Positions 2,535 through 3,781 of a stretch of 43,714 nt of DNA are shown one piece after another. The position numbers and the translations under genes were made by a program. The stretch is from a virus. How positions within the stretch are numbered: position 1 is the first letter of the stretch; every line of letters begins with the position of its first letter. The notes beneath the pieces are model-generated. The model ran no database searches. It was not told the origin of the DNA and was given only the letters and a program-made list of their open reading frames with translations. The DNA lies in UHGV virus genome UHGV-0175557. One strand, given 5' to 3'.

Positions 2535-2870
2535 TTATTCGCCCAACGCTTCTTTCAGTAACCGATACGTTTCAGGACATTTACCGGATCCGCGTTCATG
2601 TTCATAAGCTGCACTAATAACATCCCAGTTTTCAATCACACCTTTAAATGCCGGACACTTTTCAGCAATCAATGGAAAACTGTTTCTGATTTCTGGTACA
2701 GCTTCAACCAGGAACCAGCAACGACGAAAATCAGAAACGTCCAATGGTGCACGAAACCCCCAATCACCATTCATTTCATTACCCGTGTGAATGCAAACCA
2801 TCGTTTTAGAACTCAGGCCAGTTTCACCAGAGCATAACCAGTGAATAATACGTTCCTGTTCTGTTTTCAT
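2535..2870 (-). CDS. hypothetical protein (111 aa)
   Basis: ATG at 2870 overlapping rdgC stop; no similarity recognised. Confidence 0.5.
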
Positions 2871-3781
2871 CGTTTAGCTTCCCCACCCAAAGCAGTGATA
2901 AGTTGTTTGATCAGCGCCTGAAGTTCACCTGTCATTAGTACAAAATCAGCATCAAACCGCGCTAATACATCTTCACGATCGATATCGTCGTTCTGGTCAA
3001 GCAACTCGTCGCAGAATTTCACACGGTTTAACGTCATGCTGTCAGTTAGCGTAAACGTTACCCGCGTCTGCCAGTCCATCGCCAGTTTTGTAACGACTTT
3101 CCCGGCTTCAATATGCGTGGCTATTTCATCACTGGTTAAATCCTGTTTTTTAACGCGTGCAACACCGCCATCAGTCAGAATCGCTTTTAGTTCCGCAGAA
3201 TCACCCATCGCGAAACCTGCTGGCGCGTTTCCTGAACGTACCCACTCCGTTGTTGTCAGTTCAACAGGGTTTTCAGTTGTCAGTGGGACTACAGGCAGAC
3301 TACCCAGGGATTTACGCAACAGCGCTAACGCATCTTCAGCCCGTTTAGCACTGGATGCATCAACCACGATCAACCCGTTAGTAATATCAATCCACAACTG
3401 TGTACGACTGTTTTTAACGAACGCCCGTGGTAACAGTGAATGCAACACTTCGTCTTTCAGCGCGTCTTTCTCTGTTTTCTTCAGCTTACGCGCCTGTTCA
3501 GCTTCCAGTTTGGCGATTCGCGCGTTCAGATGCTGCTTGATGACTGGACCCGGAATAATCTTTTCCTGTTTCTGGATGGTCAGCAGATATTGCCCATTAG
3601 CCTGGTGAACCAGTGTACGATGTTGTTCAGTTGCCGGAACCCAACCAGTACGCGCCATATCCTGTGAACCACATGGATTGAACTGAAACGCACACAGGCT
3701 GTCTTCCAGCGTTGGTAACTGGGCCATTAATGCCATCGGGTTAGTCAGACGATAAATGATTGCGTTTTTAAAGAAGTTCAT
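2867..3781 (-). CDS. rdgC: recombination-associated protein RdgC homolog
   Basis: 304 aa; FKNAIIYRL...[16 protein letters not shown]...[42 protein letters not shown]...[10 protein letters not shown]...FVLMTGEL matches E. coli RdgC along its full length as recalled; AGGAAA SD before ATG 3781. Confidence 0.8.

What the first reader, a model, noticed from the sequence alone, without database searches (positions are those of the whole stretch)
2867..3781. Full-length RdgC homolog carried by the phage
The 304-aa protein aligns by eye with E. coli RdgC along its whole length. Host RdgC binds DNA and modulates RecA. A phage copy in an early cassette could redirect host recombination or protect replication intermediates.
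Basis: partly seen in the sequence, partly recalled or inferred. Interest (0 to 1): 0.4.

Follow-up and report, generated by a model that had tools for sequence, protein, structure and literature searches.

The report
Phage-borne RdgC DNA-clamp gene, accessory
The phage does carry an intact, full-length copy of the bacterial DNA-binding protein RdgC, but such phage copies are common and already annotated, so the finding is correct and ordinary; what RdgC does for any phage is still untested.

Summary
Confirmed. Window 2867..3781 (minus strand) encodes a 304-aa protein that matches the RdgC family end to end: Pfam PF04381 E=4.8e-116, and E. coli RdgC crystal structure 2OWL E=1.9e-129 at 66.6% identity. 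All ten residues shown by mutagenesis to matter in E. coli RdgC are conserved. dN/dS within the phage clade is 0.11-0.16.

The window is a 9NA/Sasha-type virulent siphophage. RdgC homologues occur in 508 phage records (PHROG 724), P1 hrdC has long been known, and the nearest relatives already annotate this gene. It is therefore already known.

New context from this work:
- The gene sits between terS and terL in a 2.19-kb leftward cassette that runs from a promoter to a terminator.
- The cassette is bounded by copies of a repeated sigma-70-type promoter.
- Phages 9NA and 536P12 lack exactly this cassette. Sasha lacks it plus the next cassette. Carvaje keeps only a C-terminal remnant.
- 16 of 20 relatives carry the gene, so it is selected but dispensable.
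- The phage clade is monophyletic and does not nest in any host genus, so it is not a recent host capture.

The proposed function is inference only: a ring clamp on duplex DNA that restrains host RecA on phage DNA.

The parts
2867..3781 (-). rdgC homologue, 304 aa (the end coordinate includes the stop codon)
   Evidence: ORF. Pfam, NCBIfam, PHROG and PDB matches. 66.6% identity to E. coli K-12 RdgC.
3434..3550 (-). Codons for the finger (tip) domain, phage residues 78-116 (E. coli 77-115). Includes the fingertip basic residues R98, K99, K101 and K102.
   Evidence: 87% identical to E. coli over this region. The four fingertip residues are conserved in 20/20 members of the phage clade, with K-to-R at one site in three members. 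Their role in DNA loading is from PMC2965237.
3098..3145 (-). Codons for the alpha6 'horseshoe' dimer-interface residues Q213, E219, H223 and K228 (E. coli Q212, E218, H222, K227).
   Evidence: All are invariant in the phage clade and in the chromosomal clade. Gate-interface residues R119 and F121 (E. coli R118, F120) are also invariant.
3778..3978 (-). Upstream 66-aa gene of unknown function. Its stop overlaps the rdgC start (ATGA).
   Evidence: No PHROG or Pfam family.
2535..2870 (-). Downstream 111-aa gene (phrog_1229, unknown function). Its start overlaps the rdgC stop (ATGA).
   Evidence: The family is widespread in phages (HK022, Stx phages, PY54, vibriophages) but is not consistently next to rdgC.
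3981..4647 (-). Three further small genes of the same cassette (3981..4175, 4172..4357, 4354..4647), all of unknown function.
4653..4694 (-). Promoter repeat copy heading the rdgC cassette (TTTAAAATAATTCTTGACG, 17 nt, TAGACT). It is also the left breakpoint of the deletion seen in 9NA and 536P12.
2507..2526 (-). GC-rich hairpin followed by a T-run: a terminator-like site that closes the rdgC cassette.
   Evidence: A terminator is annotated at the equivalent place in phage Sergei.
2461..2502 (-). Promoter repeat copy immediately after the terminator. It is the right breakpoint of the 9NA, 536P12 and Sasha deletions.
6849..6890 (-). Outermost promoter repeat copy (TTGACA, 17 nt, TATAGT; 11 of 12 consensus positions). 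It heads the whole leftward block and is the left breakpoint of the Sasha deletion.

Best explanation
SHOWN. The ORF is an intact member of the RdgC family. It keeps every experimentally defined DNA-loading and dimer-interface residue and is under purifying selection. It belongs to a monophyletic lineage carried by 9NA/Sasha-type siphophages of Escherichia, Salmonella and Klebsiella. It lies in a 2.19-kb leftward cassette that runs from a promoter to a terminator, between terS and terL, and is translationally coupled to both neighbouring genes. Closely related phages have or lack this cassette, with the junctions inside a repeated promoter element.

INFERRED, from the biochemistry of E. coli RdgC:
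- The protein is made from a host-RNA-polymerase (sigma-70-type) promoter soon after infection.
- It uses its basic finger to open the gate and clamp around duplex DNA without sequence specificity.
- This blocks extension of RecA filaments, strand invasion and branch migration, and so dampens RecA co-protease signalling, on phage replication and recombination intermediates.
- Concatemer formation and repair are then left to the phage's own Gp2.5-like annealase and exonucleases.

The phage brings extra RdgC into a host that already has one, so the effect would be one of dose or timing rather than a new activity. The benefit is conditional, because the gene is not essential.
For: Identity: and 66.6% identity to E. 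coli RdgC.

Functional residues: R97, K98, K100, K101, R118, F120, Q212, E218, H222 and K227 (E. coli numbering) are all conserved in the window protein. They are conserved in 20/20 members of the phage clade, with K-to-R at K98 in three. Their roles are from PMC2965237. The finger is 87% and the alpha6 region 81% identical to E. coli, against 37-53% for the N-terminal 76 residues.

Selection: dN/dS is 0.11-0.16 at dS of 0.37-1.27. More than 120 clusters (90% identity level) at least 80% identical to the query are all 303-307 aa long, many on contigs of 55-61 kb.

Expression context: ATGA overlaps on both sides. The promoter repeat is found 9 times against 0.1 expected, with an invariant UP-like/-35 region and a TAnnnT -10. 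There is a terminator hairpin at 2526..2507.

The phage's own replication and recombination genes are annotated in the close relative Bas82: DNA polymerase, helicase, primase, Gp2.5-like ssDNA-binding/annealing protein and exonucleases.

Other phages place rdgC in early or replication modules. In P1 it is in the uhr-hrdC-dmt operon behind a C1 operator. In PdC23 and in a Serratia prophage it sits directly after a lambda-P-type replication gene.

The host already carries rdgC in 5425 of 5426 E. coli genomes.
Against: - No experiment exists for any phage RdgC. P1 hrdC scored non-essential in a CRISPRi screen (PMC10695390).
- The gene is naturally missing from 9NA, Sasha and 536P12 and truncated in Carvaje, so any benefit is conditional.
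- The timing of expression is inferred from promoter sequence only. The generic promoter scan was not enriched over shuffled sequence (15 found against 12.2 expected).
- Why extra RdgC would help when the host has its own copy is unexplained.
- The N-terminal third is much more diverged than the rest and could carry a phage-specific interaction that this model does not account for.
- The AlphaFold model was too poor to test the fold directly.
Confidence: 0.55

Rival explanations
1. End or duplex protection. The ring threads onto the ends of the linear, headful-packaged phage chromosome or onto replication products. There it shields them from RecBCD or other host nucleases and defence nucleases. 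This would be a Gam-like role achieved by a different protein.
For: E. coli RdgC has raised affinity for DNA ends and binds linear dsDNA tightly (PMC1885664; PMC2965237). This phage group is described as circularly permuted and terminally redundant (PMC8273493). No other recognisable end-protection gene was seen in the cassette.
Against: No RdgC has been shown to block RecBCD. The relative Bas82, which carries rdgC, is reported as markedly sensitive to restriction-modification systems and the Old defence system. The rest of the genome was not searched for Gam-like genes.
Confidence: 0.2
2. Counter-defence or takeover factor. By silencing RecA filament activity and the SOS response, the phage copy stops RecA- or SOS-dependent host responses, such as induction of resident prophages or SOS-controlled immunity. 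The patchy distribution would reflect an arms race in which some hosts sense the protein.
For: The gene sits in a variable cassette of small genes of unknown function, the usual home of host-interaction genes. E. coli RdgC reduces RecA-dependent LexA cleavage in vitro (cited in PMC11077077). Overexpressed E. coli rdgC was listed among the triggers of a Salmonella retron toxin/antitoxin system (bioRxiv 10.1101/2020.06.22.160242).
Against: No paper links RdgC to anti-defence (zero hits). Bas82 showed no unusual robustness to the defence systems tested. This explanation overlaps the best explanation and differs only in what the benefit is.
Confidence: 0.12
3. RexA-like role. The protein acts as an exclusion or regulatory DNA-binding protein rather than a recombination modulator, as has been suggested for RdgC homologues next to cI in some lambdoid phages.
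For: Lambda RexA is a structural homologue of RdgC (PMC11077077). The suggestion for lambdoid phages is in PMC12315714.
Against: This protein is a direct, high-identity sequence match to RdgC, not to RexA, and keeps the ring-interface and finger residues. The neighbouring genes match no Pfam family, so no RexB-like partner was detected. No repressor was seen nearby. The phage group is described as lytic, so there is no lysogenic switch to bias.
Confidence: 0.04
4. Nearly neutral passenger. The gene hitch-hikes in a mobile promoter-bounded cassette and contributes nothing measurable.
For: Natural loss in 9NA, Sasha and 536P12 and truncation in Carvaje. P1 hrdC is non-essential.
Against: dN/dS is 0.11-0.16 over large synonymous divergence. 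Length is constant and the functional residues are invariant across more than 120 clusters. The gene is retained in 16 of 20 related phages on three host genera.
Confidence: 0.09

Closest known systems
E. coli RdgC (PDB 2OWL; Pfam PF04381)
   Same: Same length (304 aa against 303) and 66.6% identity over the whole protein. The fingertip, gate and horseshoe-interface residues are identical.
   Different: It is phage-borne rather than in the chromosomal mak-rdgC-ppnP context. It scores just under the cut-off of the enterobacterial chromosomal equivalog NF001460 (477.9 against 501). The N-terminal 76 residues are only 37-53% identical, and net charge is -2 against -8. In the tree it falls outside the chromosomal Enterobacterales clade.
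RdgC of other 9NA/Sasha-type phages (Sergei gp07, SP069 'RdgC exonuclease', Bas82_0099, AVIO78A, PDP46, PJ16, Klebsiella phage KP13-27)
   Same: 78-96% identical, at the same locus between terS and terL, and already annotated as recombination-associated protein, RdgC or exonuclease.
   Different: Essentially nothing: this is another allele of the same gene. The neighbouring small genes vary. For example, Sergei has an extra 85-aa gene between rdgC and the 111-aa gene.
Phage P1 HrdC (homologue of RdgC)
   Same: A full-length phage RdgC homologue, 58.6% identical, sitting in an operon expected to be switched on at the start of lytic growth (C1-controlled Pdmt promoter).
   Different: P1 is a temperate myophage, and hrdC is co-transcribed with the Dmt methyltransferase. 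HrdC scored non-essential by CRISPRi.
PeSL cassettes of T4-type phages (promoter-early stem-loop; PMC2839356, PMC4122927)
   Same: This concerns the context, not the protein. Repeated strong sigma-70-like promoter motifs, one of them directly abutting a terminator stem-loop, bound cassettes of small non-essential genes. The insertions and deletions that distinguish close relatives have their junctions inside the repeats.
   Different: A different phage group (siphophage) and a different motif sequence. A stem-loop was seen at only one of the three local copies. Mini-circle formation was not tested.

Membership tests
RdgC (Pfam PF04381 / NCBIfam PRK00321) | Full-length match to the family profile above the curated threshold | tested here: met
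   PF04381 387.7 bits against a cut-off of 25, profile positions 2-298 of 298. NF001462 equivalog 419.7 bits against a cut-off of 330.
RdgC (Pfam PF04381 / NCBIfam PRK00321) | Homology to the solved toroidal-dimer structures across all domains | tested here: met
   2OWL E=1.9e-129, residues 2-304 aligned to 2-303. 2OWY E=6.4e-67. This is a sequence-level test only.
RdgC (Pfam PF04381 / NCBIfam PRK00321) | A predicted 3-D model reproduces the RdgC fold | tested here: inconclusive
   The AlphaFold2 model had mean pLDDT 54.9 and pTM 0.40, and residues 167-284 were below 50, because every row of the alignment was at least 80% identical to the query. No fold search was run on it.
RdgC (Pfam PF04381 / NCBIfam PRK00321) | Electropositive fingertip (E. 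coli R97, K98, K100, K101) needed for loading onto DNA | tested here: met
   R98, K99, K101 and K102 are present. They are conserved across 20 sequences of the phage clade, with K-to-R at one site in three of them. Their role is from PMC2965237.
RdgC (Pfam PF04381 / NCBIfam PRK00321) | Gate-interface residues R118 and F120 | tested here: met
   R119 and F121 are invariant in all 58 sequences compared.
RdgC (Pfam PF04381 / NCBIfam PRK00321) | Horseshoe-interface residues Q212, E218, H222 and K227 | tested here: met
   Q213, E219, H223 and K228 are invariant in both the phage and chromosomal clades.
RdgC (Pfam PF04381 / NCBIfam PRK00321) | Sequence-independent dsDNA binding as a ring dimer, and inhibition of RecA strand exchange and LexA cleavage | not testable with these tools
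   This needs purified protein or genetics.
Chromosomal enterobacterial rdgC orthologue (NF001460 equivalog) | Score above the equivalog cut-off, chromosomal synteny, and placement inside the chromosomal clade | tested here: not met
   477.9 bits against a cut-off of 501. The context is a phage. The protein is 63-67% identical to every chromosomal copy compared, whereas those copies are 70-91% identical to E. coli. The phage clade is monophyletic in 100/100 bootstraps and lies outside the chromosomal clade, although the chromosomal clade itself has only 53/100 support.
Lambda RexA-like exclusion proteins | RexA-type sequence and a RexB-like membrane partner next door | tested here: not met
   The protein hits RdgC directly, not RexA. 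The neighbours tested have no Pfam family at all.
PeSL-like mobile regulatory cassette (context of the gene) | A repeated strong sigma-70-like promoter motif bounding cassettes, with the junctions of insertions and deletions between relatives lying in the repeats | tested here: met
   Nine copies against 0.1 expected. The junction in Sasha is a hybrid of the 2502 and 6890 copies. The junction in 9NA and 536P12 joins window 2502 to 4669.
PeSL-like mobile regulatory cassette (context of the gene) | A stem-loop terminator physically joined to each promoter copy | tested here: inconclusive
   A hairpin abuts the 2502 copy (2507-2526). None is evident at the 4694 or 6890 copies in the alignment.

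The most novel reading that the evidence does not exclude
The phage RdgC lineage is not a spare copy of the host protein. It would be a dedicated takeover or counter-defence factor: its conserved ring clamps phage or host DNA, while its strongly diverged N-terminal third gives a phage-specific activity. That activity might be shutting down RecA/SOS-dependent immunity, shielding phage DNA ends, or poisoning host RdgC through heterodimers. The cassette's presence or absence among relatives would then reflect host sensing of the protein, for example by retron systems.
Probability: 0.12. Interest if true: 0.55.

Novelty: already known. Interest (0 to 1): 0.18.

Why it matters
The gene identity adds nothing new. 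RdgC homologues in phages are a catalogued family (PHROG 724, P1 hrdC) and this gene is annotated in the nearest relatives.

The modest value lies in two points.

First, no phage RdgC has ever been tested functionally. This phage group offers a ready-made natural series that differs at defined promoter-repeat junctions: with the cassette, without it, and with a truncated gene. That makes a clean genetic test of what extra RdgC does during infection straightforward.

Second, the common database label 'exonuclease' for these phage genes has no experimental basis. No nuclease activity was found for E. coli RdgC (PMC1885664). The label should read DNA-binding or recombination-associated protein.

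Tried and rejected
- AlphaFold2 on an alignment of 21 phage-clade sequences gave a poor model (pLDDT 54.9). The rows were too similar to each other, so I ran no fold search. I judged that a second large protein search to deepen the alignment was not worth the cost, given 66.6% identity to a crystal structure.
- I looked for a conserved two-gene module of rdgC with the overlapping 111-aa downstream gene. The 111-aa family is widespread but is not consistently adjacent to rdgC: Sergei has an extra gene in between, KP13-27 has different neighbours, and in the vibriophages the two genes are 16 kb apart. Rejected.
- Recent capture from the host is rejected. No bacterial genus is closer than about 67%, and the phage clade is equidistant from all of them.
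- A prophage origin in E. coli is rejected. No E. coli genome has a match covering at least 80% of the gene.
- Pfam and PHROG scans of the other cassette genes gave no informative function: every PHROG hit was to a family of unknown function, apart from one weak match to a family labelled radical SAM domain-containing protein.
- Literature searches for a role of RdgC in anti-defence found nothing.
- Two key papers are not in the held library: Zeng et al. 2019 on 9NA-like genomics and Moore et al. 2003 on RdgC.
- The generic promoter scan was not enriched over shuffled sequence. The evidence for promoters rests on the specific repeated motif instead.

Full report
OBSERVATION. The ORF list shows a 304-aa ORF at exactly 2867..3781 on the minus strand, with an ATG start. 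It matches Pfam RdgC (PF04381) from end to end: E=4.8e-116, profile positions 2-298 of 298. It passes the NCBIfam RdgC equivalog NF001462 (419.7 bits against a cut-off of 330). It falls just under the cut-off of NF001460, the best-scoring RdgC equivalog, which I take to represent the enterobacterial chromosomal orthologue (477.9 against 501). It also matches PHROG 724 and the two solved RdgC structures: 2OWL from E. coli (E=1.9e-129, residues 2-304 aligned to 2-303) and 2OWY from P. aeruginosa (E=6.4e-67). Computed identity to E. coli K-12 RdgC is 66.6% with two small indels.

WHAT THE WINDOW IS. The region is 93-95% identical at the DNA level to Escherichia phages PDP46, AVIO78A, PJ16, KarinMuster_Bas82 and 'Sashavirus BDX09P1', and 87% identical to Salmonella phages Sergei and Solent. 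These are 9NA/Sasha-type siphophages of about 56-58 kb. They are described as relatives of the Salmonella phage 9NA with presumably terminally redundant, circularly permuted genomes. The window covers about 44 kb of such a genome.

IS THE PROTEIN LIKELY TO WORK LIKE RdgC? Briggs et al. 2010 (PMC2965237) defined the critical residues by mutagenesis:
- four basic fingertip residues (R97, K98, K100, K101) needed to load onto DNA;
- R118 and F120 at the 'gate' interface;
- Q212, E218, H222 and K227 at the 'horseshoe' interface.

All ten are present in the window protein, at position +1. They are invariant or conservatively replaced in 20 members of the phage clade, 30 chromosomal copies and 8 other mobile-element copies. 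Conservation is uneven. The finger is 87% and the alpha6 interface region 81% identical to E. coli, but residues 1-30 are only 37% and residues 31-76 only 53% identical.

Within the phage clade dN/dS is 0.11-0.16 at dS up to 1.27. The 120 best-scoring database clusters (90% identity level), all at least 80% identical to the query, are 303-307 aa long, and many lie on contigs of 55-61 kb. The gene is therefore intact and under purifying selection. An AlphaFold model built from these shallow sequences was poor (pLDDT 54.9) and I did not use it.

ORIGIN. E. coli carries chromosomal rdgC in 5425 of 5426 complete genomes, at about 71% DNA identity to the phage gene. No E. coli genome has a match covering most of the phage gene. 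The closest copies in 185,579 species genomes are only 62-67% identical and are spread over many Enterobacterales genera.

In a neighbour-joining tree rooted with P. aeruginosa RdgC, the 9NA-type phage clade is monophyletic in 100/100 bootstraps. It groups with other mobile-element copies: P1 HrdC, Pantoea phage PdC23, Klebsiella phage KpF5, Salmonella phage F1055 and prophage copies. It does not fall inside the chromosomal Enterobacterales clade. The deep split is only moderately supported (53-65/100). This is an old phage-borne lineage, not a recent capture from the host.

HOW COMMON IS IT? A tblastn search finds RdgC homologues in 508 phage records, most of them annotated 'exonuclease recombination-associated' or 'RdgC'. 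P1 hrdC is annotated as an RdgC-family homologue in the P1 genome record and scored non-essential in a CRISPRi screen (PMC10695390). RdgC homologues in lambdoid phages are discussed in PMC12315714. Lambda RexA is a structural relative (PMC11077077). The direct relatives of this window already annotate the gene. No paper reports an experiment on a phage RdgC. The 'exonuclease' label is a legacy name: no nuclease activity was detected for E. coli RdgC (PMC1885664).

GENOMIC CONTEXT (new here). rdgC lies in a block of 15 small leftward genes (2031..6624) between terS (1170..1922) and terL. terL probably starts at 6954, not at the first GTG at 6729, which would give the 587 aa seen in Sergei. The other genes in the block either match PHROG families of unknown function or match nothing. 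The rdgC start overlaps the stop of the upstream 66-aa gene, and its stop overlaps the start of the downstream 111-aa gene. Both overlaps read ATGA.

An 18-nt element, TTTAAAATAATTCTTGAC, occurs 9 times in the window against 0.1 expected. Six copies are exact, and nearly all are on the minus strand. Aligned, the copies show an invariant AT-rich UP-like tract plus -35 region, followed 17 nt later by a TAnnnT -10, which is a sigma-70-type promoter. Three copies lie in the terS-terL block, at 2485-2502, 4677-4694 and 6873-6890, spaced 2.19 kb apart. A GC-rich hairpin with a T-run at 2526..2507 directly precedes the 2502 copy, and Sergei has a terminator annotated at the same place. rdgC therefore sits in a unit running from promoter P4694 to that terminator, together with five small genes.

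NATURAL VARIANTS.
- Phage Sasha joins window 2501 to 6834. Its junction is a hybrid of the two outer promoter copies, so it lacks both cassettes.
- 9NA and 536P12 join window 2502 to 4669. They lack exactly the rdgC cassette and have no RdgC by tblastn.
- Klebsiella phage Carvaje keeps only RdgC residues 202-304, after an unrelated internal deletion.

Among 20 distinct phages with TerL at least 87% identical, 16 carry full-length rdgC. The gene is therefore dispensable for plaque formation yet usually retained. [quoted passage not shown]

MECHANISM (inferred). The close relative Bas82 encodes its own DNA polymerase, helicase, primase, a Gp2.5-like ssDNA-binding/annealing protein and exonucleases. 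This phage type can therefore replicate and recombine without RecA.

E. coli RdgC clamps duplex DNA and blocks RecA filament extension and strand exchange. The Briggs model proposes that translocating polymerases and helicases can displace it. The most economical reading is that the phage supplies extra RdgC from a host-type promoter to keep RecFOR/RecA off its gapped and branched replication intermediates and to dampen RecA signalling.

The placement of rdgC in other phages fits a role tied to replication and early functions: directly after lambda-P-type replication genes, and in P1's C1-controlled uhr-hrdC-dmt operon. The rivals are:
- protection of linear DNA ends, since RdgC has raised end affinity;
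- counter-defence through silencing of the SOS response;
- a RexA-like role;
- a neutral passenger.

Purifying selection argues against the passenger idea. High-identity RdgC features and the lack of any partner gene argue against the RexA-like idea. None of these can be settled by computation.

VERDICT. The useful additions are the promoter-bounded cassette structure with a natural presence/absence series, the evidence that this is a long-standing phage lineage rather than a recent host capture, and the correction of the 'exonuclease' label.

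Noticed in passing
window 2485-2502, 4677-4694, 6873-6890, 12237-12254, 14460-14477, 16229-16246, 19802-19819 (all minus strand); 20103-20120 (plus strand): A repeated element, TTTAAAATAATTCTTGAC(G)GATTACA, followed 17 nt after the TTGAC by a TAnnnT hexamer. 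There are 9 matches against 0.1 expected by chance. It looks like a family of sigma-70-type promoters, each heading a small leftward gene cassette interspersed among the rightward structural genes. About 22 nt are invariant, more than a promoter alone needs, which may mean a regulator also binds there.
   Followed up: partly
window 2447-2502, 4657-4694 and 6834-6890; L002 1687-1741 (Sasha); L093 965-1047 (536P12); L090 1385-1466 (9NA): The differences in cassette content between close relatives have their junctions inside the promoter repeats. Sasha lacks window 2502-6834, and 9NA and 536P12 lack 2503-4668. This is a PeSL-like shuffling mechanism in a siphophage group.
   Followed up: yes
L092 2505-2837 (Klebsiella phage Carvaje): This phage has a truncated rdgC remnant that encodes only the C-terminal ~103 residues and is annotated as 'RdgC exonuclease'. 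The deletion runs from about window 3178 to 5431 and is not at the promoter repeats.
   Followed up: partly
L023 2989-4131 (Serratia quinivorans contig); ORFs of similar length in L079 (Pectobacterium) and L077 (Brenneria corticis): A second, prophage-borne RdgC copy of 380 aa is fused to a C-terminal FtsK-gamma DNA-binding domain (PF09397, E=7e-23). It sits directly after DnaT-domain and lambda-P replication genes and before a Dam methylase. A ring clamp joined to a sequence-reading domain is an unusual architecture. The domain scan was run on the Serratia copy only.
   Followed up: partly
window 1-118: A perfect 21-nt tandem repeat (CTACAGGTGCTTCCACTCGTG, 5.6 copies, 100% matches), cut off by the start of the window. 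Its function is unknown. Sergei has an annotated tandem repeat elsewhere in the terS-terL block.
   Followed up: no
window 6729-6954: The mechanical ORF for terL starts at GTG 6729 (662 aa), but relatives have a 587-aa TerL, which implies a start at ATG 6954. The 330-bp interval 6625-6953 then holds the outermost leftward promoter. terS and terL are separated by about 5 kb of oppositely oriented small genes.
   Followed up: partly
window 2535-2870: The 111-aa gene overlapping the rdgC stop belongs to a widespread phage family of unknown function (phrog_1229). It is found in 260 phage records, including HK022, Stx-converting phages, Yersinia phage PY54 and many vibriophages.
   Followed up: partly
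L004 (labelled Vagococcus sp. WN89Y) and L034 (labelled Pseudomonas lundensis I31): Contigs labelled as a Firmicute and a Pseudomonas carry enterobacterial-type rdgC, 91% and 81% identical to E. coli RdgC. The second clusters with the Serratia copies. These are probably contaminated or mislabelled assemblies.
   Followed up: no
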